A DNA stretch of 64,000 bases from a virus (taxonomy: Duplodnaviria; Caudoviricetes). Position 1 is the first letter of the stretch. The number at the start of each line of letters is the position of its first letter. Location: positions 64,001-128,000 of the IMG/VR virus record IMGVR_UViG_3300014204_000111; one strand, 5' to 3'. Shown here in pieces: positions 36,818 to 57,582 of the stretch. The translations under genes and the position numbers were made by a program. The notes beneath the pieces are model-generated. The model worked only from the letters and a program-made list of their open reading frames with translations, searched no databases and was not told where the DNA came from.

Positions 36818-36930
36818 AATATTATTTACCCAATTATTCTACTATTCCGAAAATTACGGAATTGTTTCTTTTCTTGTCAAGGTTAAATTTTGGTAAAATG
36901 TTTGAAATCCTGTGGTCTGGGTATAATATA

Positions 36931-37030
36931 GGGCAAGAGAGGAACAGGTTCGAGTCCTGGCCTGCGGACGAGAGAAGCGATTCTTTCTATCCGTGGTGTA
37001 AGGTAGTTTAAACGGTGAACACTCTTGCTT
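36931..37030 (+). ncRNA. Circularly permuted tRNA-like RNA
   Basis: GGGCAAGAG/CTCTTGCTT terminal stem; T arm CAGG-TTCGAGT-CCTG first; closed acceptor hairpin; D arm TA-GTTT-AAACGGT-GAAC last. Confidence 0.85.
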
Positions 37031-37050
37031 TAAATTTTGTGAGGTGCAAC

Positions 37051-37329
37051 ATGGACGAACATATCAAGAATTTTATTAACAATGCGTCTGAGCAAGAATG
37101 TGCTGTGCTTTCACTTATGATTTATGAGCGTAAGCGTTATCTTATTTCTAAAAGAGGATTAGAGGTTCTTTCTGAATTAAGAATAGGTAGTAAAGTTACA
37201 TTTAATGGTAATCAAGGCCAAGTATTTACAGGTAATATTACTAAAATTAATCGTAAAACCGCTAATGTTCATACTACGATAGGTCAAAATTGGAATGTTG
37301 CTCTGTCTTTGCTAAAGGTCATTGAATAA
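37051..37329 (+). CDS. Small SH3/KOW-like phage protein
   Basis: IGSKVTF...GNITKINRKTANV...WNVALSLL. Confidence 0.6.
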   Translation: MDEHIKNFINNASEQECAVLSLMIYERKRYLISKRGLEVLSELRIGSKVTFNGNQGQVFTGNITKINRKTANVHTTIGQNWNVALSLLKVIE

Positions 37330-38114
37330 TGACAAAGTATGCTGTTATTAAAGAACCAAATCCTTATGCTTGGAGTTCTGGTTGCACAGTTTCACTTACT
37401 GATAGTTTAATAGAAGCGAGAAGTTGGTATGATAATGATAAAGAGCTTATGAAAAATGGACATTATGCTTCAGTAAGTCTGGTAGAGCTTATAGTTATTG
37501 AAGAAGAAGATTGTCCTAATGCAATATTACAAGATAATGGTTCCCAAGATTAGGAGATAATATGTTATTATTTTTTGGTTGTTTATTTTTGTTAATTGGT
37601 ATTAGTGGTTTTATTCTTATGAAGATAAATCATAAAAATAAGAGTATATCTATCAGTATAATGCCTAAAATTGAAGAGGTTGATGGCAGGTTTCATATTA
37701 CCCATACAGATGGAACAGACAAGTGGTGTAATACCAAACAAGAAGCAAGAGATTTTTGCGATATGAAAGCCATTGAATGTTTGGATAAAATTAAGGCTGC
37801 ATTAACTAATTTACAGGATGATAAAAAATGAGAATGTTGGTGGTGATAGAGAATAGTTGGTCAGGACTTAAAGTTAAGTTAGTTTGTGATATTAATGATA
37901 TAAATATTGTTACAAAATATCGTGACAAAATAAAACATAATGTAAATAAAGATTATTTACCAATATGTATGCAATCATTTAATAATATATTAGCTAAAGC
38001 AAAAACATACAAACTTAAACCTGGAGAATGTAGAAAAATACAGTTAGCAAGTGGAGATAGACAATTTTTTGTAACAGAAGTTAATGTTTATAATATAAAT
38101 ATGGATATTGAATT

Positions 38115-38600
38115 ATGATTAAAGTTGGAATTGCACCTTATTTAGAATGTAGTTCAAGAGGAAATAAATGCTTTTCTGCTTTTTATGCCAGGATTAAAAA
38201 GAGAAATAACTCTTCTATTGAAGAGATATATCAAGCATCTAAAGTTTTTGAAGATGGTTCAACAAACCTGAATATAGCAGAGGCCAGAGGAAAGGTCGCA
38301 ATAAATCAAGAAGAATGCTCTTTATTATATTCAATGCTTTGGGAAGAATACATTGCAGAGAATCCAGATTTAATTGAAATTTTAATTAATGCTACTGGTC
38401 TTTCAGATATGTATGGTCAGGAAGGCCATTGTTGTCAGGCTCTTGAGCTTTGGAGAATTAGAAATAACTTTATAGAAATAAAGAGTTTAAGTGATGATAT
38501 GTTAAAAGCCGCCGAGAGTTCAATGGGGTTTTGGGATAATGAAGAGGATGAAACTTGGGATGAATCTTTTGTGCCTGCTACTAATTGGGGTACTAAATGA
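38115..38600 (+). CDS. NADAR / T4 gp30.3-like protein (tentative)
   Basis: ECSSRG..FSAFYA...IEEIYQASK...LYSMLWEEY..ENPDL. Confidence 0.5.
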   Translation: MIKVGIAPYLECSSRGNKCFSAFYARIKKRNNSSIEEIYQASKVFEDGSTNLNIAEARGKVAINQEECSLLYSMLWEEYIAENPDLIEILINATGLSDMYGQEGHCCQALELWRIRNNFIEIKSLSDDMLKAAESSMGFWDNEEDETWDESFVPATNWGTK

Positions 38601-39082
38601 TTAAAGCACCTTGGACAAATTGGCAACAAGAATCAATTAAAGCATTTCAATTAATGAATTTGCTTCACCCATTTACTTGTGGGAATGATTCATGCAGAGC
38701 AGAACATAAAGAAAGTTTGATAATTAATGATGGACTTCTTTATTGTCCTCATTGTGGATACACTCAGGATTGGGTTCACGAAATTATGGCAAATTGGCAA
38801 TGGATTTTTGTTCATTGCTCTAAAGAAGAGTATAGCCAATTCAAACAAAATTTAAAATGAGAACTAATATACTTAAATTTCATCTTTATTTGATTCGTAG
38901 ACATTTATCATATTTGCGTCGTCCTATTTTATTGAATCATAGAATTGATGATTTATTTTTATTAAGAAGAATAAATGGTCATACTCCTTGGTTTACAATA
39001 GGATGTAATAAAGTATGGAATTATATAAAAGAACTTTCTAAGGAGACGGTTTAGAGTCTGAAATTTTGGGTATAATAAAGTC

Positions 39083-39164
39083 TAGTGCGGAGATTCAGGT
39101 GCAAGTCCTGACTGCCCAGGCGAAAACGCCAGCAGATAGTTTAAGTAGCAGAATACCGCCATTG
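39083..39164 (+). ncRNA. Circularly permuted tRNA-like RNA
   Basis: GCGG/CCGC, AGAT, TCAGG-TGCAAGT-CCTGA, CTGC..GCAG closed acceptor, TA-GTTT..GAAT D arm. Confidence 0.85.
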
Positions 39165-39196
39165 TTTAGTTCTTTATCTTTTTGGGTATAATACAA

Positions 39197-39270
39197 TGCG
39201 GGATAGAGAAGTAGTTACTCGGAAGGCTCATACCCTTCAAACGTGGGTGCAAATCCCACTCCCGCAACCA
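39197..39270 (+). tRNA. tRNA-fMet(CAU)-like
   Basis: TGCGGGA/TCCCGCA-ACCA; GAAGG-CTCATAC-CCTTC; initiator-like D stem. Confidence 0.85.
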
Positions 39271-39507
39271 TTTTGGAGGTTAATTATGAATACTTCGCTA
39301 CTTAAAGAGAAAGTAAAAGAGTTAATCTCTTTATTTGAAGATATTAAGTGTGCTCAGAAAGAATATGAAGAAGAAATGCTTTTCTTATCTCTTTTTGCTG
39401 ATACCTTGAAATGGATGGATGAACATTCTCGTTCTGGAGCAGCAAAACAATTAAAATATATTTTTGAAAAAAGGATTGAAGGAAAGAGTTATTAATTAGT
39501 TTAACAA

Positions 39508-39583
39508 TGAGAGTGTGGTGTAATCAGGTAGCACGCATTTTTTGGAAAAATGGGGCGCAGTTCAAATCTGACACTTTCAACCA
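39508..39583 (+). tRNA. tRNA-Pro(UGG)
   Basis: CATTT-TTTGGAA-AAATG; D arm GTGT..GCAC; ACCA end. Confidence 0.8.
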
Positions 39584-39899
39584 TATTAATAGGAGAAAAA
39601 TGATAAATGAATTTACATTATGTTGGCAGATATGATAATGGAGTTTTTACTGAATCACCTGTAAAAGAAATGTCTAAAGAAATATTTTGTGATGGAATGG
39701 GTAGTCAATGGAATTATACTTTTCGAGATATAGATTTTTTCTTTTATAGACATGGTTTTAAGATAGAAGTAGAAGATGATTTGGCTATTACAAAAATTGG
39801 AGATATCATTTATTATTTCACAATAAGTTAATTTTTGAAAGCTTGTTTGAAGTCCTGTCTATTGGGTATAATAAAGAGTGAAGGAAGGAACTCCTTTAC

Positions 39900-39994
39900 G
39901 AATAGGAGAAGCAGGATTCGATTTCCTGCCATCGCGGATGTGATGTAGTTTAGTCTGGAATACGTCTGCTAGCAAGACAGTAAAACACCTATTT
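39900..39994 (+). ncRNA. Circularly permuted tRNA-like RNA with an expanded D loop
   Basis: ATAGG/CCTAT, GCAGGA-TTCGATT-TCCTGC, CATCGC-GGAT-GTGATG, TA-GTTT...AAAC. Confidence 0.82.
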
Positions 39995-40033
39995 TGAAAA
40001 GCCTGTTTAGAATCCAGTAAAACGGGTATAATA

Positions 40034-40148
40034 GTGTTGTAAAGGTAAAGATGGAAGTTCGAATCTTTTCTAGTGCGTTAAAACCCTGCGGTTCTTGCGG
40101 GGGAGCGTTAGTAGCATAAATGGAATAATGCGTTACTGAATTTGACAC
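40034..40148 (+). ncRNA. Circularly permuted tRNA-like RNA with an extended terminal stem
   Basis: GGTAA/TTACT, AGAT, GGAAG-TTCGAAT-CTTTT, 7-bp CTAGTGC/GCGTTAG acceptor closed by a hairpin, TA-GCAT..ATGC D arm, outer GTGTT/GACAC. Confidence 0.88.
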
Positions 40149-40248
40149 CCGCCACTCGCGGGACATAAGAATGATAAATATGTCATTTCTTTATAAAGAG
40201 GAAACTTCTTTCCTCTAGTTTTAACGGAAGGATTTACAAAGTAAATCC

Positions 40249-41313
40249 TTCCCTCTTGAACCTTGAAAAGTTTGTGTCTAATAAGTTAGAAGAGACGAGT
40301 TGGCTTGCTATTACTGCAAAGCAAGTGAGTGAACCAAAACAGTCTCATATTGAAATATGATAGAGTAAGGAGCTGGACTAAATGTTGCTGCTGGATGCGC
40401 GATATTTAGCCTTACTCATTGTAAGGACGATGTAACGTAGAAAGTACACGTACTCTTTAAGAGATTCGTAGGAAATCTTAGTTTTTCCGTCCAGTTTGAA
40501 AGCAATTGCTGTACCTGACCTGATAGTGGTAGGGGTATGAGGATAGCGAATCATATTTATGGAATCTTACAGATTGACGAATCTATAGGATAAACTATCT
40601 TACGTATGAATTGATTCGTCAATTCAAGAAGCTGCAACTGTTAGGTTGTAGGACTGGTGGGCGTATATAAGATTAAATGCCGCGACCAGTTTGTGATTTT
40701 ATAATCCGAAGAGGATGTCCACCTTCGTTAAAACCTGCGTTGTGTGTTGGCACAGTCAACAGAAAAGCGGACTAATCGTGGTTGACGTTTAAGAGGGCCG
40801 CGACTCTTTATTAACGCGGGTGAAAGCTCTTAAATTGAGAGTGATGGTGAATTATCTTTGGGATAAATTGTGACCATCTAGCGGCCAGCGCTGTGTTGGT
40901 AGATTATCTATCACACTACTGGATTTTAATATATAATTTTTAGTATAATTTTTAGAAAAGATTCTTCTTTGTTTTGCAGTGGCCTTGTCCTAATCTGCTA
41001 GAAGAATCTGTATTTTACTTTGAAAAACTTTAGGATTCAAGTACCTAAGAAACTTAATGTTGTATGATTAGCAACTTCCTAAACGCAAACTTTGAAAATT
41101 TGCAAGAAAAAATAATCAAATGCCATTTCCTTGGCTCACTAATAACTAGATACTTTTAGTGAAAGGAAAGCCATTAGGACGTGTAAGGCTTTAATCTACG
41201 CCCTTAAAAATTGAATCATCGGTCGATTGATGGTGGAAAGACACAAAACCTACCTTTTTTAGAAAGATATTTAAACGGAGGGAAACAACCATCTAAAGAT
41301 AGATGGTTGTTTC
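40249..41313 (+). ncRNA. Large (~1 kb) ornate structured RNA, family unassigned
   Basis: No ORF of 60 aa or more; long-range pairs TTCCCTC/GAGGGAA, TTTGTGTCT/AGACACAAA, TCCAGT/ACTGGA; many hairpins and pseudoknots; 14-bp terminal hairpin. Confidence 0.75.
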
Positions 41314-42650
41314 ATATTATATGAAATTTACCATATGTATTGTATTTGAAATTGAAGAAACTAGTCTTGAAGAAGCTAAGATTAGTGCAGAAGAATACAA
41401 AGAAACATTAGAAGAAGAAAGCAATGGAACAGATTATATTACTCCTGGCTCTTTATCTACTTATGTGACTCAAAAAACTTGTGAGTGTGGAGGAGAAATT
41501 GATTATTATTCTTGGGGAAGAGGAGGAGATTATATCTCCGAAGCTATATGTAAGTCATGTCACAAAGATTTTAATAAGGAATAATATATGTCTAAAAAAG
41601 AGAAGTTAATATATCTTGTGGCTAGAATATATTATGCAGCTAAATGGACAATTACATACAATTCTCTTGACCCATTTAAAGAATTTATTTATACAAGTAT
41701 ATGGGCAATTGATGCTGACCCTAATGGGATTTAAAATATTCTTATTATTAACAGCATGGGAAATGTCTTGTTGTTTTGATTTTTGTAATAGAAAATTAAA
41801 AACAGTTTATTATAAATATAGAGATTTAAATAGACATTGCCCAGGAATGAATATTAAATTAGTGCGTAGGAAAATTTATGAACGTATGCATAACAATCAA
41901 TAATAATATTACTTATGATTATTTTGATAAAAACGATATATATCTGTGGCTTTCTGGAAGGTTTCTATTTACAAAACCAGAAGTGAGACAGAATATAGCA
42001 TATGAAATAATAAATTATGGAAGTTCTGAGTTTTATCATTATAATGACCTTTATCATCATAATGACCATATAATAATAAAAACTACAATGATTAATTGCG
42101 ATTTAGAGATATGAAATGATTAATACAAAAGCTTTGTTTAATATAAGATTTTATGGTTTTTTACATCGTATTATGTATAAATACTTAGTAGCTACTAGAA
42201 TGAGTTGGAATGAAGAAGAAAAAATTAATGATTTTTATAGGAGACATTATCCTATAAGTTGGGGATATGATAGCATAAGTATATCTTACAAGTCTTTCGG
42301 TAGCTTAATTATAGATACTTTAATTATTATATTAGGTCTTATTACATTAATATTTATTAATGTAGAATCATATGATACAAAATAAAGCGTTATAAACATT
42401 ATCAATTTGACCGCAATAATACGATAAGAGCGCAATAATAGAGAATGATATAGAACTATACATAGTGATATATCGTTTTTTATTTACTCTTTATTGAAGG
42501 CTAAGTCTTGCTTAGGAGTCTATTTTACCCTTATAGCTGAAAGCGTAACATTTTAGTTAAATGATAAAAAGAGTATTTTATATATATTTAACACAGCTAG
42601 TGTTTAGAAGCTAAGACTTCGGGTATAATAGACCATTAGGAGATGATTTT

Positions 42651-43382
42651 ATGAGTAGAACAATTGTAATTCCTGACGTACATCATAGATGGAATTTAGC
42701 ATTAAAACCTTTAGAAATTACGGCTAATAGATATATCTTTTTAGGAGATTATTTTGATAATTTTGGTGATACATTAGAAGATACGGCTAATACTGTACGT
42801 CAACTTATTGAATTATCTAAGCGAGATGATGTTACTTTATTATTCGGTAATCATGATATTGGTTATCGTTTTAAAGGCTTTGAATGCTCTGGTTGGACAA
42901 AAGAAAAGTGCGATTTAATTAATAAAATGATGCCTGCCGAAGTATGGGAGAAGATGCAATTAGTTACTTATGTTGATGGATTTATTCTTTCTCATGCTGG
43001 ATTGGCTGAAAGTATTTTTAGTCATCCTATTGATGGCATAACACCAGAATATGTTGCTAAGTTATGCGTTGAAGGATTGGAACATGCTCAATTAGGTATT
43101 TATACTCCTGCTTTAACACCTGGACAAGCTAGGGGTGGTCGTCAAAGACAAGGTGGCCTTGATTGGTTAGACTTTAATCAAGAATTTGCACCAATTAAAG
43201 GAATAAACCAGATTTTCGGTCATACCCCAGCACCTTCCGCAAGACAAAGTAGCACCGAAGATTCAATTAATTGGTGTATTGACACTCATTCAAAAGGGTT
43301 TGTCATTCTTGAGAATGGCAAGGTCTTTCCACAAGAGATTAAAATGGTTGATTTTTTAAAAGATAAATTATCCGAAGTTTAA
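42651..43382 (+). CDS. Calcineurin-like metallophosphoesterase
   Basis: PDVH, GDYFD, GNHD, SHAG and GHT motifs. Confidence 0.92.
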   Translation: MSRTIVIPDVHHRWNLALKPLEITANRYIFLGDYFDNFGDTLEDTANTVRQLIELSKRDDVTLLFGNHDIGYRFKGFECSGWTKEKCDLINKMMPAEVWEKMQLVTYVDGFILSHAGLAESIFSHPIDGITPEYVAKLCVEGLEHAQLGIYTPALTPGQARGGRQRQGGLDWLDFNQEFAPIKGINQIFGHTPAPSARQSSTEDSINWCIDTHSKGFVILENGKVFPQEIKMVDFLKDKLSEV

Positions 43383-44591
43383 CCTTAGAAGTGTTTATAA
43401 TTCTTAGAAATGGGGATAATACAATTGAAGTGAAAGGAGAATTGTAATGTCTAAGCGTAGTGCTAAAATAAAGAGGAAAGTAGGCAGGGCTTTAGAACAT
43501 ATTGCTTATAAGTTAACAGCTTCAGGAGTAGGCAAACACAAGTCTGTGCGCGATTATAACAGAAAGAATAAGGATTGGAAGAATGAGCAATCATAAAGAG
43601 CAAAAGAGGGAACGTAAGTTCTGGATTGTTAAAATTAAGGAAAGGGATGGGAATATTCCACCTGAATACAAGATAGTTGAAACAAACAAAAGACCAAAGA
43701 ACGCTGTATTTCAAAGTAAAGACCAATATTATGAGTCTAAGAATACAGCAGAAGTCCAGATGAATTATATTTTAAATGAAATATTCAGTTCGTGTGATGG
43801 TACAAGGTTTGACTAATAGGAGAAATCAATGTTTCAAATTAAAGTAAAGTTTACTTGTCCTTTGTGTGGAAAAGAATCAGAAGATGATGACCCTGCAATT
43901 TATGGACAAGAAGAATCACAAAGTTGTGACGGTTTTATTGCTGTAACTTGCTCTCATTGCAAAGAGGATATCGAATTTTCTGACAGATATGGAGAGGGTT
44001 GGACAGGCGAAAAGATGCCGAATTATAATGCCTTTTAGGAGTAAGAAATGAAAGAACGTACCCGTTGTATTAAGTGTAGTGTCAAAATTGAATACAAATG
44101 TCCTCATTGTCATAAAGATATTAGTGAATCTGATGCCATCTATTCCTGTCAAGATGGTTTTGACAATGCTTTTCTTGGTCTTATTTGTCCTGAATGTAAA
44201 AAAGAATTTGAGGTTGAGAATGTTATGGATGGAGAATGGGTATTTCGTTGGTATGAATAGATATTTAACTAAAAGAGTGTTTCTTAGCTCTTTATCCTGG
44301 GTATAATCATGTATCAAACCAAGGGAGAAACAAAGATGAAGAGCAGAAAGAAAGCGCAGGTCTTTAGAGTAGTAAAATGGATTATGCATGAGTATCCATC
44401 GGGGAATACTATGGAAGATTACGTTAAGTTTAATGAATTGTTGCAAAAGGCTTGTGATTGGGTCAATCGTACAGGTTTGTTTCTTAAGCCTCAATCTGAA
44501 GAACCAGAAGTTTGGGGTTAATTTAACCTAAAGAGTGTTTGAAAGCCTCTTTACCGGGTATAATATAGCATCTTTGAAGGGAGAGTTTAAA

Positions 44592-44900
44592 ATGGAAAAG
44601 AAACAGAAGTTGAGCACTTTAACCCTTATTGGCATCATCGCATCTTTTGAGGATGGTCGGCGTCTGATTCAGGTTAATCGTGAGGCAAAACTTCAGGCAA
44701 TAAAAGCAATTCGTGATATTACTGGCCTGGGTCTTGTGGAAGCAAAACTTATTTCTGACTATCTCTTTCTTTGTACTAATGCTGACACTTTCACCGTGGG
44801 TGCGCAAGAAATGATTCAATTCTGCGAGTCTTACATTCTCTCGTTGACTAGCAAAGAGAACGAAATCCAGTCGTTGTTCGACAAATTCAACAAGTTTTAA
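44592..44900 (+). CDS. Protein with a ribosomal L7/L12 C-terminal-domain motif
   Basis: KLQAIKAIRDITGLGLVEAK. Confidence 0.7.
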   Translation: MEKKQKLSTLTLIGIIASFEDGRRLIQVNREAKLQAIKAIRDITGLGLVEAKLISDYLFLCTNADTFTVGAQEMIQFCESYILSLTSKENEIQSLFDKFNKF

Positions 44901-44977
44901 TCTAAGTTTCATTGAAAACCTGTTTGAAACAGGGACGGTCAGGGAATAATACATTATCAAAGTCAAGGAGTTTTAAG

Positions 44978-45304
44978 ATGGCAAAGTCAATTATGGTAAC
45001 TAAGGTTCTCGTTCGTGATTCTCGCACTGGCCGTTTCGTGGACAATGCTCCAGTAAAGCATCTAGCTATTACTGGAAACATTTCTTCTCGTCAGATGATG
45101 GGCTGGGCAAGTCATCCTAAGCAAGAGCGTGCTCTTCGTTTTGAGAATGACAATCGCCTTGAGGTTTATGTTCCTGAAGGATATTTCCTCACTTATAAGC
45201 GCGAAGGTCATCTGACTCAGCCTACTTTTGTGCCTCGTTTGAGGGATGCTCTAAGGGTTATTCTTCGTAAGTTTAACTCTTACGTGTCTATTTTTACGTC
45301 TTAG
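44978..45304 (+). CDS. Hypothetical early protein
   Basis: Own promoter, AGGAG RBS, downstream hairpin. Confidence 0.7.
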   Translation: MAKSIMVTKVLVRDSRTGRFVDNAPVKHLAITGNISSRQMMGWASHPKQERALRFENDNRLEVYVPEGYFLTYKREGHLTQPTFVPRLRDALRVILRKFNSYVSIFTS

Positions 45305-48821: not shown

Positions 48822-48842
48822 TCAGGAACATTAATTGGATTA

Positions 48843-48866
48843 AGGCCAGGGAAACCTGGCCTTTTT
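48843..48866 (+). terminator. Rho-independent terminator
   Basis: AGGCCAGG-GAAA-CCTGGCCT followed by TTTT. Confidence 0.88.
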
Positions 48867-50482
48867 AATATATATTTAATCTCTTTTATGTTTAAGAATC
48901 TAGGTAAAGGGGAATAATATATTATCAATAAAGAGTGAGGATGAAATGCATAAGTTTAAGGTTGAAGATTTAGTTGTGATTCAAGAGAATCCTTTCCATC
49001 GGGCTTTGATTGGTACTTATGGTATGGTTGAGCAAGTGTTTGGTGGGAATGATAATACTACACCTGTTTATTCTATTGTTACGGAGCGTGGAATTTACAC
49101 TTTTACAGAGCAAGAATTGAAGGGAGAATAATTCAATGATGAACAAGTATGAATTATTCGGTTATTTATCATTCTTAGGTTTTCATCCTAAGTATGAAAA
49201 ACCAGTAAAACGTCATAGTATGACCTTCCAGATTATTAGCTTTACCATTGGCGATAGAGATGTTTACTTTGAAGGTGATAATTATTGGTCATTGAATGAA
49301 CATAAGACTAATCCTGACCGTTCTCTTTACTTTGGTGGTGGAAGTAAACAAAAAGAAATTCAAAAGTCTATTAAACTTGTTGAATCTGGATTTACAGGTG
49401 TTGAACCACGGGTTATCTGGAAGGATGACGTTGTTATTATGCATAATCCATTCTATGATAATATAAAAAGTAAGGAATTTCATGGTCGTGGTTATTATGA
49501 GTTAGAATTACCTATTGGTCATAAACTAGCAGACAGGATTCCAGAGGGTCTACCATATAATTAGAATTTAACCTAAAACTTGTTTCACATATAGAGAGCG
49601 GGGTATAATAAGATATTCAAGAGTTAGGAGAATTAAATGGCTGTTCAAAGTATCTGGAAAGTATTAGGTGATGTGATGATTGCTAATATGGAAGCAGAAA
49701 AGCAAGCAGAAATTAAGGCAAGCGAAGCATTTACAACTGAAGAGCTTTTTGAGGAAGCTTCTAAGTTGTTACGTGAATGGACTAAATGTACGTTTGCTAA
49801 CATCTTCTTGCGTTATTCTCCTCATACTTATATTGAAACTATTAAGCGTAAAAAAGTTGAGGTTCCTGGTGCTGCTTGGCATGTCTCAGGAAGTTATAAA
49901 ACTTATATCTGTGGAATGTCTCACGAAATTGAAATGGAAGGAGCTAGGCTTGGTTATACGCCTAATCACGCTCTTTGGGTGTTCTTGGAAGGTCTTAAAA
50001 AGAGGATTTCATCAGAAGCTAAGAAAGAAAGTGTTTAATTTCTTCTCCGCAGGGTATAATACTGTATCAAAGCAAGGGAGTCAGAAATGACCAAGTTTTC
50101 AATTACCATTAATGAAGAGAACGATGAAGAGATTATTAAATTGGTTAAGACTTTTCTTTCGACTGTCTGTAATAGTCTGCCGTTGGTTGAGGTTGAGAAT
50201 CAAGCTAAGACTGCTTGGGACATTACCAAAGAGCAGGTTAAGCACTTTATCTATATTAATCATCAGCTATATACCACGAGAAACATTGCAAACGCATTTA
50301 ATATGTCGATAACAGATGCTAAAGCAATGCTAAATGCTTTGTGTGATGAAGGTAAAATCCAGAAGAATATCTTTGGAGATATGGACAAACTTACTACCTG
50401 GAGTTCACCAAGTTTTAATCATTAATCTGTTATCTTTGCTCTTCACCGGGTATAATATAGTATCTTTGAAAGAGAGGAACAA

Positions 50483-50807
50483 AATGTTTAACCAATTCGA
50501 CCTGAACAAGTGGCATAAGAATCAAGTTGATACTGGTAAGTATAGTTCTGAGCATGGCGCAGAAGATTTAGTTTGTGCCGATGGTTTCTCAATGAGTGTC
50601 CAGGCTTCCGAAGGGCATTATTGCACGCCTAAGCGTAATTTTGCTCCGTGTTATTCTCATTTTGAAGTTGGTTATCCTAGCAAGTATCAAAGTGAGCTAA
50701 CACGTTATAAGCAGGGTCGTGGTAAGGCTACTGAGTCTGTTTATGCTTATGTTCCTGTTGAAGTGTTGGAGTCTCTTGTTTATAAGCATGGTGGAGTGAA
50801 GAAATGA
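50483..50807 (+). CDS. Conserved-looking hypothetical phage protein
   Basis: CADGFSMSVQASEGHYCTP...EVGYPS...VYAYVP. Confidence 0.65.
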
Positions 50808-53755
50808 TGATTGCTAATATTGAAGTAAAGTCGTTAGTAAATATTCATCCAGATGATTTCACTGGATGTGAACATCAATGGATAGAGAATCCATATGATT
50901 ATGATTCTTGCCAAACTCAAGTTGTTTGTTCTTTGTGTCACTGTCCAGGTGAATTAGACGAAAAGACGGGAGAATTGGTTTATCCTACAACTTAAGAGGT
51001 AAAGAGATGTCTAAGTGTGTAATCTGTGATAAAGAGTTAAAGAAATCTATTGGAGCATATGTCAATGTTGAGTGTGATTTAATTCACTTTCAAGATGACA
51101 ATGCTTGGCCTTGCTGTCCTGATTGTATTGCAAGATATGAAGATAAAGAGCATTGGACAATTGAACAAGCGAGAGAGTGCGAACAAGAAAGGGAGAATAG
51201 TTAATGATAAATAGAGATAGGCTCAAACATCATAAGAGAATCAAGCGCAATAAGATGTTTTTAAGATATCATTCTTGTCCAGAAGGTAGATATTGTCCTT
51301 GGTGTCAAGAAACGAGACAGTATCAGATAAAGAGAGAAAGAGAAAGACTCAAAGACCAGGAGAAAGAGTTAATCGAAGTTTAATGATTAATTGGTTTGTT
51401 GCTCTTCATCCTGGGTATAATACAGTGTTCTGAAAGGGAGTGAGAAATGGTTAATCTTGATAAAAACGAAGTGAACAATCTTATTCTTGCGGTAGGCGTA
51501 GAAATCTTTGCGCAGCAAGCATTGCAAAGTATCAAGAACATTCGTGCTGCCGGTCTTGATACTCCTGATGGTATTGGTATTAAAACTAGCAAAACCTTTT
51601 ACGATTGGTTAATGTTTAATTATCTTCCTTTGGGAGTGAGGTCTTTTATTATCACTGAGGAATCAGTTAAGGGTTTTATCAATGCTTTAACCCATGACCT
51701 TGTAGATATTAATTTTGCTGAAAACCTAAAGGCCAAGCAAAGTTTTTGGGCAAAATATGAAGTAGATGATTAGACTTCTTGTTTATCGGGTATAATAAGG
51801 CATCTCAGAAAGGGAGAACGAAATGTTAAAGGGCGAAGTACATTTTGATAAAGATGGCAATGTTATTGGTTGGGGTGTGTGGACTAATGGTGGAATTGAA
51901 GGTGGCGATTGTGTTTATGAAGAGAATGCTGTTGGTATGTTCTATTCTCAAGCATTAGCAAGAGCACAGGCTAAGGCACTCGAAATGGAAGGCCAGCCAC
52001 TTCCTATCTATTCTAATGATTCGCAGCGTGTGGATGCCCTTGTAGAGCTTCTTAAGACCTATCTTAGCGATGATGGGATGGCGGAAGGTGAGGGCGGTGG
52101 ATGTTATACGACGAAGGGACAGCTTGAAGTTGAAGAGAAGATGAACGCAATCCTAAAAGGGAGATAAAATGTTTAACAAGCCAAACAATTTTGTACATCC
52201 TAATGGTTTTGGGAAGGTTAACAAACCACCCAAAAGGAAAGGCCAAAAGACCTTTGGCTATCGTTTCTGGTCTTTTGTGTATTTTTGCTCTTCTGAAGTT
52301 TCTCGTCGTGCTTCTCGTAGAATGATAAAAATGATAAGAGGAGAATAGAATGGCTTGGCTTATCTTCCTAATTCCTATCTTGTGTGTTGTAGCATCCTTT
52401 ATATGGCCTACCAAGTGTCCTAAGTGTGGCTATCATGGATTAAATTTAGCTTGGCAAGATAAGAAATTGTTTGGTAAATATCGTAGATATTATAACTGTC
52501 CTTGTGGACATAAATGGAGTGTGGGAAGATGACAGGTCAAGAGGCGGGAGTATTAGAGAAGAAATTAAAAGCGTTATATCCTAATGCAGTTATTAGTGCA
52601 TATATAACTGATAGAATCCATTGTTCCGAAAAGATTATTCATAATTGGTCTATTTCAATTGAGTTTCCTTTCTCGACTGTTCAAGATGTTGATAATTTCT
52701 TAACTCTTTATCCTGTAAAGGTGTAAAATGTTAGTATGGTTAATTGACGCGGTACAAGAAAATGCTTGTGGCGATACAAAATCATTTATGGTACATGCTT
52801 CATCTACAAGAGAGAAAGCGGAAGCTTGGGTTAAAATGCAGCAAGATAAACATAAAGATTATATGCCAAAGTATGAATATATCATTAGTGGCTATACTCT
52901 TGATGTAGAGGATTTAATCCAAGTTTAACTAGAGACTTGTTTCTTTGCTCTTCACTATGGGTATAATTAAGAGTAAGTCAAGGGAGTAAGAAATGGAAAC
53001 GATTTTGTTAGTTAGTTATAAGCCAGATAAGACCAGGCGTATTAGTGCTACATTCTTTTATTGTAAGCAAAAGGATTGGGACGACGAACCTTTGCACCAA
53101 GTTACTGATAAGGATTATAAAGCAGTAATCCTTTGGGCGAAAGTTATTGAGGAACAGAAAGGAAAGGACGTTCATATAGATATTCTTCAACATCTGCTTG
53201 ATAGTATTAAGAATGACCAAAAGCATAGTTATGAGTCTGAAGATTGGTTTATCCAGTTTGTGCCTTGTATCTGTTCTTAAAGGATAAAGAGATGAAAGTA
53301 AGCGTATTGATTAAACACCTTCGTAAGTATACAGTAAAATATAAATTAGCCAAGCAATCTTATCTTTACGCAATGAAGAGAGATTGGAGTTTTAAAACTA
53401 AGTGGCGTTATTTTAAATGGGCTATTGAACCATTATTTCGATAGGAGCACGAAATGAAAGCTAGTACATTAATTACACAACTTTGTGAGTGTCTTATCAG
53501 TAATACTATAATTGGACAAGATAAAGAGACAATCATTCGTGCTAGAGCTGCTCTAATAAATGCAATCAAAGCGGCTAATTCTGATTGTGATGTTTGCACA
53601 GAAGATATAAACTTTGATAGTGTAGAATTTAAAGCAGCTATTCTTTTGGTGTTTGATGATTGCCCTAAAAATAATTACATTGATATTTTACCTAAGACTG
53701 ATTAGTTGCTCTTTATCTGGGGTATAATAAGGCATCTGAGAGGGAGAACAACAAA

Positions 53756-54250
53756 ATGGCTAAGATTACTTTCGATTATAAGTGTAACCGTTGTGAGCAG
53801 GATGTTCGTAACACGAATGTTCAAGTAGGTATTAATCAAAGTTGTGATTATGATTCGTCTATTTCGATTGATACAACCTGTCCTGTGTGTGGTCAAACAA
53901 TGACTTGGGACTATGATGGTTTTAGTGATTGGACAGCCTCTTACGAGCCTTACAAAGCTCCTGACGTGGATTATAGCAAGCCTGCCAGTGATATTAAGTG
54001 CGAAATCTGCGGCAAAGGTCAAAGCAATCACGACGAATTTAATAGTATCATTCGTGGTAACACTACAATGTTTCGTCGTGTTTGTTCTGAATGCAGGAAG
54101 GATTATATCTTTCGTGAACATCCTATCTGTGATATCTGTGGAAAGACTAACAATCGTGATATTAGTATATGGCAACGTCTGGTAGATAACAAGTTTCAAA
54201 CTATCTATACTTGTGAGGATTGCTTTAATAAGGCGTTTAATAAAACATAA
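53756..54250 (+). CDS. Multi-CxxC zinc-finger protein
   Basis: Six CxxC pairs; own promoter. Confidence 0.7.
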   Translation: MAKITFDYKCNRCEQDVRNTNVQVGINQSCDYDSSISIDTTCPVCGQTMTWDYDGFSDWTASYEPYKAPDVDYSKPASDIKCEICGKGQSNHDEFNSIIRGNTTMFRRVCSECRKDYIFREHPICDICGKTNNRDISIWQRLVDNKFQTIYTCEDCFNKAFNKT

Positions 54251-55394
54251 TGTATGGTAAGAATATTACAAAATGTAGGTTTCTTAAACATATATATGTA
54301 AAAATAGCTCAAAGGATATGGCCTTATCATCTTAGACAGTGGAAGTTTTTTCGTTTTAGAGGAGTAAGAAATAAAAATATCAAAGCTATTATGGAAGATA
54401 TATAGAATGATAAAGAGAGGTTCTTATCGTTATGGTATGGTTATACTTAGAGAAGAATGGAATCGGTGTAAACACAATGGACATATATAATCTTTGCTCT
54501 TTATCTTGGAAACAATGATGATGCAACTACTTACATGTATTAAGAGAAAGATAAGGATAATAACATCGTATTTTAACTCTTATGTAAATTGTAAATTATC
54601 TACAAGGTTAAGATATTTAGTAACTCAAGCTAAATATAGAAAACATGTTGGTAAAAGAGCAATGACAATGAGGAAATAATGATGAATTTACTTAAGTGCG
54701 TAAGAATAACAATAAGGAAAAGAACGCCACACTTTAACTCTTATATAAGAAATAACTTATCTTTAAGATTAAAAGATATGATATTTAACAAAAGGTTAAT
54801 GGAATGGGCGTACAAGGAAATTATAAGTGCTAAAGCTGAATCAGTAAAATTTCCTCCAAGACAGTTATGAGATTCTTTAACAGCTTAAAAATGGCTAAAA
54901 GGATATATCGTTTTTGTTTACGTATGGTTGAAATATCATCAAATCTTAATAAAATATCTATGTTCAAAGAATTATGTAAACGCTGGCATAATTGGAATGG
55001 ATTCTAACTCTTTTGCTCTTTATGTTTGAATGAGAATAGGAGAATACACAAGAGATGAATATAATAGATATATATGAAATATGTAAAGAGAAGTTTATAG
55101 GATGGTTAGATAAACAATGTTATAATTCGTATATTTCGTTATTCCCTTTTACGATGTGGGGGAAGTTACACAAACAGATAATGGTGTATTATGATACTAA
55201 TATGAAGGTAACAGGTTTATCTAATACGGAAATAGAAGAATTAGCGAAGGAATATACTTACGGTTATATTAACTTATTTTGGATTCCTTTATCTATAATG
55301 ATTGGGTTGATAGGTATTATTGTAGGATGTTTAGGCATTATTATAGGGTGTTTTATATAAACACCGCAATATAGGGTATATAACTAATTCTACA

Positions 55395-55468
55395 TCGTTT
55401 TCAAACCAATTATTATAGATAGTTTATCGTTTTCATAGATAGTTTATCGTTTTCAAACCAATTATTAT
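55395..55468. repeat. Overlapping direct repeats in AT-rich non-coding DNA
   Basis: ATCGTTTTCAAACCAATTATTAT twice and ATAGATAGTTTATCGTTTTCA twice. Confidence 0.8.
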
Positions 55469-56039
55469 GGGAAAAGCTAGGTCTTTTATATATTTAAAAA
55501 TCAATCTCAAACAATCTACATATCCCCACAACTTAACCAATATCTAACAAAGTGTTTTACAAGACTACAAAACCTCATAAAAGACCCACATTTAAAGATA
55601 AAGAGCTTAAATTCTAAGTAACCTGTTTGAAATCTTGTCCTTCGGGTATAATATAGCAGCGGGGAAGGGAGCGAGAGGAAAGCTGCTCTATGACCTCTCT
55701 TTCCTGATACCAATAGGAGTGCAATATATGTTGATGAAGTTGTCAAGTTGTTGTTGGGCAGAAGTCTTTGATGAAGATAAAGAGCCTGAATGTTCAAGTT
55801 GTGGCAAAAAGTGTCAAATTATTGAACATGATGTGCCTTTAGCTAAAGATGAAGATTCTTAATCAGGATTTAACCCAATTTTTATTGACATAAACACCAG
55901 CATATGATAATGAGACTGCCTCCCAGAAAGACACGCTTGCCCCAGGTGAGTTAAAAAGGTTTAATTAGTATTTAACCACACAACTGTTTTAAACTCTCTT
56001 CACCGGGTATAATTAAGCATCAGAACGAAGGAGCAAGAA

Positions 56040-56567
56040 ATGAGTAACACAGTGGTCTTGAAATGGGATAGTGATTATAACTCATCAATGGACATTAACA
56101 GCCACTTTCTCGACTTGTGGAATCGTGAAGAGAAGAAATTCGAGACTAAATGGTATGGCGATACCTACAACTTCGATTATAAGTGGATTGATGAAGCTGG
56201 TGGCTGGGCTTCTGAAGAGGATAAGGAAGAGGCTTTCCAGGCTGTCATTAAGCGTGACTTGGAAGGTTGGATGCGTGACCAGCGTATCAAAGATGAAGAG
56301 AAAGAAATGGGCGATGATTGCACTGTGGTTCGCGGAAAGAAAGTTCCGCAGGGAACCAAGGGACGCATCTTCTGGATGAAGGAAGTGCCTAAGTATCATT
56401 CCTATGGGCGTGACTTTGAATGGCGCGCAGGCATTAAAGACCAGTATGGTGATGTTCACTGGCTGCCCCTGTGCTACTTGATGAAGGACACAGTGGAATA
56501 CACTCCGCAAGAGGATGTCATTGCAGAGCATAAGGCTTACTACATGAGGAAGTGGAGCCACAAGTAA
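56040..56567 (+). CDS. Hypothetical early protein (GC-richer), SH3-like C-terminus
   Basis: VVRGKKVPQGTKGRIFW; promoter at 56005, terminator at 56586. Confidence 0.75.
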   Translation: MSNTVVLKWDSDYNSSMDINSHFLDLWNREEKKFETKWYGDTYNFDYKWIDEAGGWASEEDKEEAFQAVIKRDLEGWMRDQRIKDEEKEMGDDCTVVRGKKVPQGTKGRIFWMKEVPKYHSYGRDFEWRAGIKDQYGDVHWLPLCYLMKDTVEYTPQEDVIAEHKAYYMRKWSHK

Positions 56568-56585
56568 GATACGATGGAGAATATG

Positions 56586-56612
56586 GCCTGGGGAAACCCA
56601 GGCTCTTTTTTT
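56586..56612 (+). terminator. Rho-independent terminator
   Basis: GCCTGGG-GAAA-CCCAGGC plus T tract; near-identical hairpin at 59466. Confidence 0.88.
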
Positions 56613-56734
56613 TAACTAAAATTTGGCTTGACACCAAGGGCTTCATATGATAATGAGCTGAGCATAGGACATAAGAGTGTTTAACCAGATTTTCACTCAG
56701 AAAGTGTTTGAAAGCCTCTTCACCGGGTATAATA

Positions 56735-56816
56735 AGATACCCTAGAGACTTGGGTGCGAATCCCAACTGCCCGTCGCAGGGTACATCGTCTAAGAGTAGG
56801 ATACTAGGCTGTATTT
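56735..56816 (+). ncRNA. Circularly permuted tRNA-like RNA
   Basis: CCTAG/CTAGG, AGAC, TTGGG-TGCGAAT-CCCAA, TGCCC/GGGTA closed acceptor, TC-GTCT..GGAT D arm. Confidence 0.85.
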
Positions 56817-56832
56817 TTGTTAGGAGTTTACA

Positions 56833-57129
56833 ATGAACATTCAAGACTTGATTAATGCCCCTAGGATTGTCGTTCGTAACAGCAGAGGCCAGCTTGTTGG
56901 TGGGATGCCATCTTACAAGGTTCACGAACCTAACGCGAAGATTAAGAGCGTTCGTCAGTTCTTTGGCTATCTGATGCATTCATCCTGGGGAAAGAACATT
57001 CAGGATGCCACTATGGAAGCCTACAATGCCCAAGGTGAGCTTTTGGCACGTGCTTCTGTGTCCACCACAGGGACGCATCCTAACGGTCATCCTAAGCGTT
57101 CTGTGAAGGTCTCATTCACGAAAGTTTAA
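56833..57129 (+). CDS. Hypothetical early protein
   Basis: AGGAG RBS; follows the permuted tRNA-like RNA. Confidence 0.75.
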   Translation: MNIQDLINAPRIVVRNSRGQLVGGMPSYKVHEPNAKIKSVRQFFGYLMHSSWGKNIQDATMEAYNAQGELLARASVSTTGTHPNGHPKRSVKVSFTKV

Positions 57130-57228
57130 CCAAGAAACCTGTTAGAACCTTGAAAGTTGGGGTATAATTAAGAGTGAGGGAAAGAAAGCTTCCCAAGTTT
57201 GAAAGGCTGCTTTAGCGCCAAAGATTGA

Positions 57229-57301
57229 AAGCGGAAGGTGCGGGTGTAAGGCCCGTGTGTCAGTAACTCTGGCAGTAGACTAAATAATAGGTCAGCCGCT
57301 T
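57229..57301 (+). ncRNA. Circularly permuted tRNA-like RNA
   Basis: AAGCGG/CCGCTT, AAGGT, GCGGG-TGTAAGG-CCCGT, TGTCAG/CTGGCA, TA-GACT..GGTC. Confidence 0.8.
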
Positions 57302-57315
57302 GTTTGAAAGCAAAG

Positions 57316-57401
57316 ACAATCAATAGTTTAGGGGTTAGAACGCCAGACAAGCATGGTCGCACCTGTAGATGGTAGGGCAGCTTCGGACGCTGCTTGATTG
57401 T
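57316..57401 (+). ncRNA. tRNA mimic in normal order, without an anticodon loop
   Basis: ACAATCAA/TTGATTGT, TA-GTTT-AGGGGTTA-GAAC, irregular CCA..TGG arm, GCAGC-TTCGGAC-GCTGC. Confidence 0.75.
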
Positions 57402-57497
57402 TGGATGCTAAAGAAGGATGGTTGGCACTTACCAAAAGTCCGCCGCATTGAAAGGCTGCTAGAAGCGCCGTTTATGAGACTGTCTAATTAACAGTTA

Positions 57498-57582
57498 GCA
57501 AGGAAACGAGAGTGCAATCCTCTCTGCTGATTTAGCAAGTTGCAAATTGCCTTAAGCATCGTCTAGTAGAAGGACGCCTTGT
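57498..57582 (+). ncRNA. Circularly permuted tRNA-like RNA
   Basis: CAAGG/CCTTG, AAAC, GAGAG-TGCAATC-CTCTC, TGCT..AGCA, TC-GTCT-AGTAGAA-GGAC. Confidence 0.85.

What the first reader, a model, noticed from the sequence alone, without database searches (positions are those of the whole stretch)
36931..57582. Dispersed family of circularly permuted tRNA-like RNAs under phage early promoters
Seen: seven elements (36931-37030, 39083-39164, 39900-39994, 40034-40148, 56735-56816, 57229-57301, 57498-57582) share one architecture with unrelated stem sequences. The order is 3' anticodon strand, 4-5 nt variable loop, T arm with a 7-nt T loop, acceptor stem closed by a loop or hairpin, U8-N9, D arm, then 5' anticodon strand. 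The molecule's ends lie where the anticodon loop should be, so it keeps the tRNA elbow but can neither be charged nor decode. Four start within ~10 nt of a GGGTATAAT box, one follows a short leader hairpin, and two lie in one promoter-driven array. Known: this topology matches the tRNA-like module of bacterial YrlA Y RNAs, which normally sit beside a Ro60/Rsr gene and carry a long Ro-binding stem. No Ro60 gene is in this window and these terminal stems are short. Inference: a multi-copy, diversified set of early tRNA-elbow decoys, e.g. uncleavable inhibitors of anticodon nucleases or other tRNA-sensing defences.
Basis: partly seen in the sequence, partly recalled or inferred. Interest (0 to 1): 0.92.

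Follow-up and report, generated by a model that had tools for sequence, protein, structure and literature searches.

The report
Seven back-to-front tRNA mimics in phage
A 221-kb uncultured phage carries seven small RNA genes that keep the folded core of a tRNA but have it wired back to front with no anticodon, like the tRNA-like part of bacterial Y RNAs, yet without the Ro60 protein that normally partners such RNAs.

Summary
All seven elements sit where stated and share one order: terminal stem, 4-5 nt, T arm with a 7-nt loop, closed acceptor-like arm, D arm, terminal stem. An energy-scored descriptor ranks E6, E5, E7, E2 and E4 among the six best of 19 hits in the genome; 150 null genomes gave none at -12 kcal/mol or better. 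A covariance model seeded on E6 alone found E2. Rebuilt on both, it found E5, E1 and E7. Rebuilt on five, it found the held-out E3 and E4. It found nothing in 656 kb of unrelated DNA, but did find the true YrlA beside the Ro60 gene of mycobacteriophage ET08. Sixteen of 21 pairs covary. D-loop and T-loop bases follow the tertiary-pair rule of the phage's own tRNAs in 7 of 7. E3 is thermodynamically weak and E1 has an extra 7-nt linker.

They are not YrlA members: no Rfam match, no Ro60 gene in the genome and no Ro-binding motif. No DUF7873 protein was found either; earlier runs of this scan linked that protein to similar RNAs on other DNA. No relatives and no RNA data exist. The decoy function is untested inference.

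The parts
36919..36927 (+). GGGTATAAT early promoter box of E1 (-35-like GTTTGAAA 11 nt upstream)
36933..37028 (+). E1: permuted tRNA-like module. It has a 7-bp terminal stem, T loop TTCGAGT and a 7-bp acceptor capped by a 7-bp hairpin. A 9-nt linker precedes the D arm, whose loop holds GG. It lies in the 5' leader of ORF 37051-37329.
   Evidence: Model dG -29.0 vs MFE -32.5. CM R2 21.6 bits, E 0.0028 when not in the training set. ARAGORN calls a tRNA after re-permutation.
39068..39076 (+). promoter box of E2
39083..39164 (+). E2: permuted module. T loop TGCAAGT; acceptor-like arm of 4 bp, internal loop, 4 bp and a tetraloop; D loop with AG. It is followed directly by the promoter of tRNA-Met (39184).
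   Evidence: Second-best hit in the window of the single-sequence model built from E6 (16.1 bits, E 0.043). Descriptor energy -12.0. Model -21.1 vs MFE -25.2.
39864..39899 (+). promoter box, conserved leader AAGAGTGAAG and leader hairpin (39878-39899) ahead of E3
39900..39994 (+). E3: weakest member. Robust 7-bp terminal stem and 6-bp T arm (TTCGATT). 4-bp acceptor-like hairpin, D-arm-like sequence with GG, and an extra hairpin with a 7-nt loop before the 3' strand.
   Evidence: Held-out hit of model R3, 25.5 bits, E 5.9e-5. The tRNA-like model is -15.1 against an MFE of -28.3.
40024..40032 (+). promoter box of E4
40044..40137 (+). E4: best tRNA look-alike. T loop TTCGAAT; 7-bp acceptor (with a G3-U70 pair) capped by a 7-bp hairpin; U8-A9; 4-bp D stem; D loop with GG. 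The outer extension 40034-40148 may lie partly upstream of the transcription start.
   Evidence: ARAGORN tRNA in 1043 re-permutations. Strict descriptor. Model -17.5 vs MFE -19.9. Held-out R3 hit 18.6 bits, E 0.0067.
56725..56733 (+). promoter box of E5
56736..56815 (+). E5: permuted module in the 5' leader of ORF 56833-57129. T loop TGCGAAT, 5-bp acceptor with a 6-nt loop, weak D stem.
   Evidence: The MFE is the permuted cloverleaf. R2 30.6 bits, E 1.2e-5 when not in the training set. Descriptor energy -17.5.
57160..57194 (+). promoter box, leader AAGAGTGAGG and hairpin (57178-57194) of the E6-E7 array
57229..57301 (+). E6: cleanest cloverleaf. T loop TGTAAGG (G55, U56), D loop with AA, 6-bp acceptor with a 5-nt loop.
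   Evidence: MFE equals the model, z -2.9. Descriptor energy -23.8, the best in the genome. Seed of the covariance models.
57498..57582 (+). E7: second module of the array, with no promoter of its own. T loop TGCAATC; acceptor-like arm of 4 bp, internal loop and 4 bp. It abuts the -35 of promoter 57602.
   Evidence: The MFE is the permuted cloverleaf. R2 17.3 bits, E 0.035 when not in the training set. Descriptor energy -16.0.

Best explanation
The seven elements are paralogous, tRNA-derived RNA modules. Each keeps the tRNA core (T arm, D arm and their elbow contacts, U8-A14, and often the 15-48 pair), but the ends of the module lie where the anticodon arm would be and the acceptor end is sealed. 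This is the architecture of the tRNA-like module of YrlA Y RNAs, here without Ro60.

Strong sigma-70-type early promoters transcribe them, so that the RNA 5' end falls at the base of the terminal stem. They form the first domain of early transcripts. Two are mRNA leaders. The others lie in ORF-free RNA operons.

Most likely they work by offering an undecodable tRNA body to proteins that recognise tRNA shape. Candidates are host or phage RNA-repair, processing or modification enzymes, or host tRNA-targeting defence nucleases. The modules would act as sponges or tethers during the early conflict phase. This phage also deploys about 26 tRNAs, RNA ligases, an RlaP nucleotidyltransferase, a NADAR-like protein and a NAPRTase in the same region.

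Shown: the structure, its family coherence, its promoter placement, and its likeness to YrlA. Inferred: expression as stable RNAs, protein binding, and any decoy effect.
For: - Architecture far above chance.
- An iterative covariance model seeded from one element recovers all seven and nothing else comparable in the 220-kb genome, apart from junctions of tandem tRNA genes. It gives 0 hits in 656 kb of unrelated DNA.
- 93.8% of cells are paired and 16 of 21 pairs change on both sides; 0 of 500 shuffles reach this, and slid controls stay at or below 49%.
- The tertiary rule of the phage's own tRNAs (U55C56 with GG, G55C56 with AG, U55U56 with GA; 18 of 18 tRNAs) is obeyed by 7 of 7 elements. E6 shows the double variant, G55U56 with AA. 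Fisher p is 0.029 for the elements alone and 3e-7 for all.
- A14 is present in 7 of 7, A21 in 6 of 7, and U8 two nt before the D stem in 6 of 7. The Levitt 15-48 pair is kept, with A-U or G-C, in E2, E4, E6 and E7 (read).
- Model R3 finds the real YrlA next to the Ro-like gene of phage ET08. The Rfam YrlA model matches the same 75 nt.
- Terminal stems start 2-7 nt after the -10 box in four elements.
- GC is 43-54% against 31.7% for the genome.
- Neighbouring genes are conflict and RNA-repair genes.
Against: - There are no orthologues anywhere, so all covariation is among paralogues, on an alignment fitted to the model.
- No terminator or defined 3' end follows any element, so they may never exist as free small RNAs.
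- MFE z-scores are weak for E4, E5 and E7, and the E6-E7 region as a whole has z -0.07.
- No partner protein was identified. TROVE is absent, and no DUF7873 was seen among 70 ORFs of 170-330 aa.
- E3 prefers another fold.
- Nothing here speaks to binding or to any defence system.
Confidence: 0.45

Rival explanations
1. The modules are cis-acting processing or stability signals. Each tRNA-shaped 5' domain would be recognised by RNase P, RNase Z or exonuclease barriers. That would cut the primary transcript or shield its 5' end, setting the ends and half-lives of the downstream mRNAs (E1, E5) and long ORF-free RNAs (E3/E4, E6/E7). There would be no trans function.
For: - No terminators follow the elements.
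- The elements occupy exactly the slot that true tRNAs occupy in other cassettes of this phage: promoter, then tRNA, then SD and ORF. An example is promoter 39184, tRNA-Met 39197, ORF 39286.
- E1 and E5 end 20-25 nt before a Shine-Dalgarno sequence.
- E1 and E4 have 7-bp acceptor stems with an insert that leaves room for RNase P, as in the M. smegmatis YrlA that is cut in vivo.
Against: - Five of seven have 4-6-bp acceptor arms sealed by 3-8-nt loops or short hairpins. The YrlA paper saw no RNase P cleavage of the S. Typhimurium YrlA and attributed this to the lack of a 7-bp stem.
- Ordinary tRNAs already serve as punctuation in this genome, so permutation needs another reason.
- The two downstream ORFs are unrelated.
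Confidence: 0.25
2. The elements are decaying by-products of recombination in a tRNA gene array. Each would be the 3' half of one copy joined to the 5' half of the next, trapped between mobile promoter cassettes, with no function.
For: - Promoter sequences flank E2, E3 and E7 on both sides, and a -35-like GTTTGAAA follows E6.
- Junctions of tandem tRNAs score 17-28 bits with model R3 in this and other phages.
- The window holds other odd tRNA-like pieces.
Against: - In each element the acceptor strands pair with each other, and so do the two terminal strands, with different sequences in every copy.
- Tertiary-pair combinations are kept in 7 of 7.
- The energy gap to null genomes is large.
- None overlaps a tRNA gene.
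- Seven independent survivors, all placed precisely at transcription starts, are hard to explain without selection.
Confidence: 0.1
3. They are true circularly permuted tRNA genes of the Cyanidioschyzon type. The ends would be joined by a phage RNA ligase, and the linker between the acceptor strands removed by RNase P and RNase Z, giving working tRNAs for amino acids missing from the phage set.
For: - The phage encodes RNA ligase family proteins and RlaP.
- After re-permutation with an added loop, ARAGORN accepts E1, E4 and marginally E7.
- An earlier run of this scan reported a permuted tRNA-Asn in another phage (unchecked).
- In E5 the flanks could give a CU-GUA-AC loop (read).
Against: - No consistent anticodon-loop halves flank the terminal stems.
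- Four elements start at the transcription start, so they would carry a 5' triphosphate.
- Acceptor arms are 4-6 bp in five of seven.
- There is no discriminator or CCA context.
- ARAGORN rejects E2, E3, E5 and E6 in every permutation tried.
- A tRNA-Tyr(GTA) already exists at 19745-19828.
Confidence: 0.07

Closest known systems
YrlA (Y RNA-like A; Rfam RF02553; Chen et al. 2014, PMC4201824), including the copies in Ro60-encoding mycobacteriophages
   Same: - Same order of parts: terminal stem from the two ends, short V region, T arm, sealed acceptor-like stem-loop directly after the T arm, D arm.
- Same conserved tRNA core nucleotides, and a 15-48 pair that covaries.
- Two members have a 7-bp acceptor stem like the M. 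smegmatis YrlA.
- A model built from the phage elements finds the ET08 YrlA.
   Different: - No Ro60/TROVE gene in the genome.
- No GNCGAAN0-1G Ro-binding motif.
- No Rfam YrlA match even at E 10, whereas the ET08 copy gives 37.4 bits.
- Terminal stems are only 4-7 bp.
- Seven diversified copies lie in three clusters, most with their own early promoter.
- There are three T-loop/D-loop classes, including G55 and U56 variants.
- Some copies are mRNA leaders.
Tandem tRNA-mimic RNAs next to DUF7873 proteins in phage tRNA clusters
   Same: Ro60-independent permuted tRNA look-alikes inside phage tRNA regions. In those notes two modules sit in one RNA of about 370-400 nt. That resembles E6-E7 (57172-57582, about 410 nt) and E3-E4.
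   Different: No DUF7873 match was seen among 70 ORFs of 170-330 aa in this genome. Homology of the RNAs could not be tested, because no example sequence was on hand. Here there are also single modules serving as mRNA leaders.
Circularly permuted tRNA genes (Cyanidioschyzon merolae and other algae, some archaea; from my own knowledge, plus the reviews listed)
   Same: The 3' half is encoded before the 5' half, and a linker joins the acceptor strands.
   Different: Those genes encode a complete anticodon loop and a 7-bp acceptor stem, and mature into decoding tRNAs. These elements have no loop halves, and most have short sealed acceptor arms.
GOLLD and ROOL large phage RNAs, found near tRNA islands; GOLLD sometimes has tRNAs in its linker region (bioRxiv 10.1101/2024.12.08.627333)
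   Same: Phage-encoded, ORF-free, highly structured long RNAs physically linked to tRNA-shaped units. E3/E4 precede a region of about 1.1 kb with MFE z -6.5, with no terminator in between.
   Different: No Rfam GOLLD or ROOL match. The linked units are permuted mimics, not tRNAs. Co-transcription is inferred only.

Membership tests
YrlA (RF02553) | tRNA-like module in the order terminal stem, V, T arm, sealed acceptor-like stem, D arm | tested here: met
   Hand models, covariance models. R3 hits the ET08 YrlA at 27.6 bits.
YrlA (RF02553) | Match to the Rfam covariance model (gathering score 69 bits) | tested here: not met
   No YrlA match at E up to 10 over 36500-40500 and 56300-58000. Positive control: ET08 gives 37.4 bits, E 1e-6.
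YrlA (RF02553) | Encoded within about 4 kb of a Ro60/TROVE gene on the same strand | tested here: not met
   PF05731 finds nothing in the complete 220,861-bp genome, while the control genomes ring.
YrlA (RF02553) | GNCGAAN0-1G Ro-binding motif near the 5' end | tested here: not met
   The motif is absent from all seven elements with 30 nt of flank on each side.
YrlA (RF02553) | tRNA tertiary contacts kept, with compensatory 15-48 changes | tested here: met
   18/19 with 55/56 is concordant in 7 of 7. The 15-48 pair is A-U in E2, E4 and E6 and G-C in E7; it is not kept in E1, E3 and E5 (read).
YrlA (RF02553) | Bound by Ro60; modified by TruB and DusA | not testable with these tools
   Needs immunoprecipitation and modification mapping.
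tRNA (RF00005) | Standard cloverleaf order with a 7-nt anticodon loop | tested here: not met
   ARAGORN and Rfam call no tRNA at any element. Only after artificial re-permutation with an added loop are E1, E4 and marginally E7 accepted.
Circularly permuted tRNA genes | Joining the ends restores a 7-nt anticodon loop; 7-bp acceptor stem with discriminator | tested here: not met
   The flanks give no consistent loop. The acceptor is 7 bp only in E1 and E4. Four 5' ends coincide with the transcription start.
DUF7873-linked tRNA-mimic RNA (scan-internal) | Gene for a DUF7873 protein of about 245 aa directly upstream | tested here: not met
   Pfam scans of 38 and then 32 ORFs of 170-330 aa list no DUF7873. 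In the first scan 3 of 28 families, all weaker than E 5.7e-5, were not shown.
DUF7873-linked tRNA-mimic RNA (scan-internal) | Sequence or structure homology of the RNA | not tested
tmRNA (one- or two-piece) | tRNA-like domain plus a tag reading frame | tested here: not met
   ARAGORN with tmRNA search on the whole genome returns only tRNAs.

The most novel reading that the evidence does not exclude
The phage fields a diversified battery of Ro60-independent tRNA-elbow mimics, in three T-loop/D-loop classes. Each would be tuned to capture a different tRNA-sensing host nuclease or RNA-repair factor early in infection. Two pairs of them would be the covalently attached heads of two paralogous large ornate RNAs (about 40150-41313 and 57611-58300). 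That would make a new kind of phage RNA machine presenting tRNA shapes.
Probability: 0.15. Interest if true: 0.85.

Novelty: new variant of a known kind. Interest (0 to 1): 0.62.

Why it matters
Published Y RNA-like tRNA mimics are defined by their Ro60 partner. Seven promoter-driven copies in a phage with no Ro60 would show that the permuted tRNA core is a free-standing module that phages can multiply and diversify. It would also link tRNA mimicry to the tRNA-centred arms race of anticodon nucleases, phage tRNAs and RNA repair.

The perfect match between T-loop and D-loop variants gives a natural mutational series for testing what reads the tRNA elbow.

The finding agrees with earlier, unpublished notes of this scan that Ro60-less permuted tRNA mimics are common in phage tRNA clusters. 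It adds a case without the protein partner proposed there.

Tried and rejected
- **Relatives for orthologous covariation: none found.**
  - megablast and blastn against 50,697 phage records
  - IMG/VR by neighbouring small ORFs, DnaE, promoter pattern and the long-RNA motif
  - metagenome contigs by motif and promoter pattern: only single chance matches, and L141 is an unrelated repeat
  - NADAR-like homologues lie in unrelated phages without tRNA arrays
- **Sequencing runs.** No RNA holder is listed. Two DNA runs (landfill, the likely source, and groundwater) hold the same sequence without differences, so they give no variant information.
- **MAFFT alignment** of the elements misaligned the acceptor arms and was dropped.
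- **Strict hand descriptors** missed E1-E3 and E7. The looser count-scored descriptor found only E4, E6 and E7 and picked up AT-rich false positives. Adding energy scoring recovered E2, E4, E5, E6 and E7.
- **Whole-region folds** are uninformative for E6-E7 (z -0.07).
- **Pfam accession of DUF7873.** A guess failed and no paper mentions the family.
- **Burroughs and Aravind 2016** is not held.
- **The two ORFs behind E1 and E5** are not paralogues and have no family.
- **R3 hits in Felix O1, T5, phage G and KVP40.** All of those examined but one overlap annotated tRNA genes, mostly at tandem tRNA junctions; the exception is a weak phage G hit (E 0.065) that was not resolved.

Full report
**Setting.** The window is bases 64001-128000 of a 220,861-bp phage record with direct terminal repeats. 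Genome GC is 31.7%. No close relative exists in the phage, IMG/VR or metagenome collections searched. Its proteins are about 30% identical to those of cultured phages. Identical pieces of the same phage occur in a landfill and a groundwater metagenome. No RNA run is listed.

The window is an early region. The box GGGTATAAT occurs 39 times against 0.73 expected, preceded by GTTTGAAA 11 nt upstream. These promoters drive small ORFs, about 26 tRNAs and the elements in question. Nearby genes include an RNA ligase, an ATP-dependent ligase, an RlaP nucleotidyltransferase, a NAPRTase, a phosphoesterase and a NADAR-like protein.

**The observation.** ARAGORN and Rfam call no gene at any of the seven places. 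Each place nevertheless holds a G+C-rich 5-bp T arm (6 bp in E3; the outer pair of E1 is an A-G mismatch) with a 7-nt loop of tRNA type, 25-48 nt after a promoter box in five cases. In true tRNAs of this phage the T arm lies 59-82 nt after the box. Hand models verified against the sequence give the stated order of parts. The models lie close to the MFE for six elements:

| Element | Model dG (kcal/mol) | MFE (kcal/mol) |
|---|---|---|
| E1 | -29.0 | -32.5 |
| E2 | -21.1 | -25.2 |
| E4 | -17.5 | -19.9 |
| E5 | -17.3 | -20.1 |
| E6 | -23.8 | -26.6 |
| E7 | -20.7 | -22.1 |
| E3 | -15.1 | -28.3 |

For E5, E6 and E7 the MFE itself is the permuted cloverleaf. E3 is the exception. Its terminal stem and T arm are solid, but a 9-bp hairpin competes with the acceptor-like and D arms. 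E1 has seven extra nucleotides between the acceptor and U8-A9.

After cutting and re-joining with an arbitrary 7-nt loop, ARAGORN accepts E1 (155 permutations), E4 (1043) and E7 (2). It rejects the four with short acceptor arms.

**Chance.** A descriptor was scored by the energy of the imposed structure and run over both strands of the whole genome. It requires a T arm, an acceptor arm of at least 4 bp, a linker of 2-4 nt, a 4-bp D arm, a linker of 1-2 nt, a terminal stem of at least 4 bp and a V region of 4-5 nt. It returns 19 hits. The best are E6 (-23.8), E5 (-17.5), E7 (-16.0), E2 (-12.0), one terminator-like site (-6.1) and E4 (-5.9, with its insert left unfolded). All the others are above +2 kcal/mol. 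In 150 null genomes that keep local dinucleotide content, no hit reached -12, and 0.04 per genome reached -5.9.

**Family coherence.**
- A covariance model built from E6 alone, with its structure, found E2 as the second-best hit in 64 kb on both strands (16.1 bits, E 0.043).
- Rebuilt on E6 and E2, it found E5 (30.6 bits, E 1.2e-5), E1 (21.6 bits, E 0.0028) and E7 (17.3 bits, E 0.035). E3 and E4 appeared at the right coordinates but below significance.
- Rebuilt on the five, it found the held-out E3 (25.5 bits, E 5.9e-5) and E4 (18.6 bits, E 0.0067).
- It found nothing in the other 166 kb of the genome and nothing at E up to 1 in 656 kb of unrelated viral and metagenomic DNA.
- The remaining weak hits in the window mostly overlap true tRNA genes, several at junctions of tandem tRNAs. 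The YrlA authors warned of this same artefact. None of the seven elements overlaps a tRNA.

On the five-sequence alignment, 93.8% of cells pair and 16 of 21 pairs change on both sides. No shuffle out of 500 reaches this, and sliding the partners drops pairing to 49% or less. Two limits apply. The sequences are paralogues, and the alignment was fitted to the model.

**The elbow is kept.** The phage's own tRNAs fall into three classes:
- T loop UUC with GG in the D loop (12 tRNAs)
- T loop UGC with AG (4 tRNAs)
- T loop UUU with GA (2 tRNAs)

This is what the G18-U55 and G19-C56 contacts predict if they covary. One further tRNA-His copy (22749), whose T loop is AGCGTTA, fits none of these classes and was left out of the count. 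The elements follow the same rule in 7 of 7. E1, E3 and E4 have UUC with GG. E2, E5 and E7 have UGC with AG. E6 has UGU with AA, the double variant.

Presence or absence of GG tracks U55C56 perfectly (Fisher p 0.029 for the elements alone, 3e-7 with the tRNAs). The looser test, 'expected purine pair present', is easy to pass in A-rich loops, so I rest on the GG test.

A14 is present in 7 of 7 and A21 in 6 of 7. A U lies two nucleotides before the D stem in 6 of 7. The 15-48 pair is A-U in E2, E4 and E6 and G-C in E7.

**Comparison with YrlA.** Chen et al. (PMC4201824) define YrlA by three features:
- a position within 4 kb of a Ro60 gene;
- a GNCGAAN0-1G motif near the 5' end;
- a tRNA-like domain in exactly this order, with covarying 15-48 pairs.

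They also report that the M. smegmatis copy, which has a 7-bp acceptor stem, is cut by RNase P and receives CCA.

Here the whole genome has no TROVE domain. The motif is absent. The Rfam YrlA model gives no match even at E 10.

The control works in both directions. Model R3 picks out a 73-nt site in mycobacteriophage ET08 (27.6 bits, E 3.4e-5) that lies 190 nt upstream of its annotated Ro-like gene. The Rfam YrlA model matches the same site at 37.4 bits over its tRNA-like core. So the elements work like the YrlA tRNA module in architecture, but they are not members of that family as defined.

**Earlier notes of this scan.** These are unchecked by me, apart from what follows. They report Ro60-less tandem permuted tRNA mimics beside DUF7873 proteins in many phages. 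I found no DUF7873 among 70 ORFs of 170-330 aa. I could not compare the RNAs themselves.

**Transcript context.** The terminal stems of E1, E2, E4 and E5 begin 6, 7, 2 and 3 nt after the -10 box. True tRNAs of this phage are set equally close to their promoters.

No terminator follows any element.
- E1 and E5 run into Shine-Dalgarno sequences and unrelated small ORFs.
- E2 runs into the tRNA-Met cassette.
- E3 and E4 run into an ORF-free stretch of about 1.1 kb that folds far better than shuffles (z -6.5) and ends at a 14-bp terminator at 41282-41313.
- E6 and E7 are followed by a promoter and a second ORF-free stretch.

The two long stretches share one hairpin with a conserved loop and covarying closing stems. 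Three promoters share a leader, AAGAGTGARG. Large phage RNAs near tRNA islands, sometimes with tRNAs in a linker, are known (GOLLD and ROOL). Rfam finds neither here.

**Mechanism.** Structure, paralogy, promoter placement and likeness to YrlA are shown. That the modules act by binding proteins that read tRNA shape is inferred from three things: the kept elbow and core, the YrlA precedent, and the conflict and RNA-repair genes around them. I put this at 0.45.

The specific idea of uncleavable decoys for anticodon nucleases is one version of it, and no test here bears on it. The main rival, at 0.25, is a purely cis role in processing or protecting the downstream RNAs. It explains the missing terminators and the leader positions, but not the short sealed acceptor arms or why ordinary tRNAs would not do. 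Recombination debris (0.10) and true permuted tRNA genes (0.07) fit the data poorly.

**Verdict.** This is a real, coherent set of seven YrlA-like tRNA-core mimics without Ro60: a new variant of a known kind. Its function is open. Expression data and orthologues are missing.

Noticed in passing
window 40245-41313: An ORF-free stretch of about 1.1 kb directly after E4, with no terminator in between. MFE z -6.5 against 20 shuffles. It ends at a 14-bp terminator at 41282-41313. There is no Rfam match (GOLLD and ROOL included).
   Followed up: partly
window 40960-41008 and 58228-58272: The two long ORF-free regions share one hairpin. The loop GCAGTGGyCTTrTCCTAATCTGC occurs only at these two places in the genome. 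The closing stems differ but both pair (GATTCTTCT/AGAAGAATC against CTTAGAAC/GTTCTAAG). This suggests two paralogous large RNAs, each preceded by two tRNA mimics.
   Followed up: partly
window 39873-39899, 57169-57194, 57611-57640: Three promoters share a transcribed leader, AAGAGTGA(A/G)G, followed by a hairpin. All three head ORF-free RNA units.
   Followed up: no
window 57717-57780: A 16-bp stem encloses a tRNA-type T arm (AGAAG TTCGACT CTTTT) and is followed by TTTT. It lies inside the RNA that starts at promoter 57602.
   Followed up: no
window 34407-34523: A promoter-proximal RNA of about 117 nt with two T arms and an outer 7-bp acceptor stem that holds a G3-U70 pair. Model R3 does not detect it.
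   Followed up: no
window 19745-19828, 27920-27995, about 15649-15929, 59003-59109: tRNA genes that ARAGORN missed: tRNA-Tyr(GTA) with a long variable arm, tRNA-Ile(TAT), and a type-II tRNA interrupted by the group I intron that Rfam finds at 15675-15862. There is also a tRNA-like gene with an insert of about 58 nt where the anticodon arm should be.
   Followed up: partly
window, all tRNA genes (e.g. 20999-21072, 21150-21220, 26631-26705, 39197-39270, 16861-16935, 30962-31036): Six of 18 tRNAs called by ARAGORN have G55 or U56 in the T loop. Each has a matching change at 18 or 19 in the D loop (AG or GA in place of GG). This is a systematic tertiary covariation.
   Followed up: yes
window 57199 and 57448: The direct repeat TTGAAAGGCTGCT, followed by (N3-4)AGCGCC, lies 30-50 nt ahead of both E6 and E7.
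   Followed up: no
window 38115-38600, 24071-25081, 32450-33226, 8123-9502: Counter-defence and RNA-repair style genes in the same early region: a NADAR-like protein (DarT1-associated family), an RNA ligase, an RlaP nucleotidyltransferase and a NAPRTase.
   Followed up: partly
window 39000-57700: Contigs of a groundwater metagenome from another study carry pieces identical to this landfill-derived phage, at low depth.
   Followed up: partly
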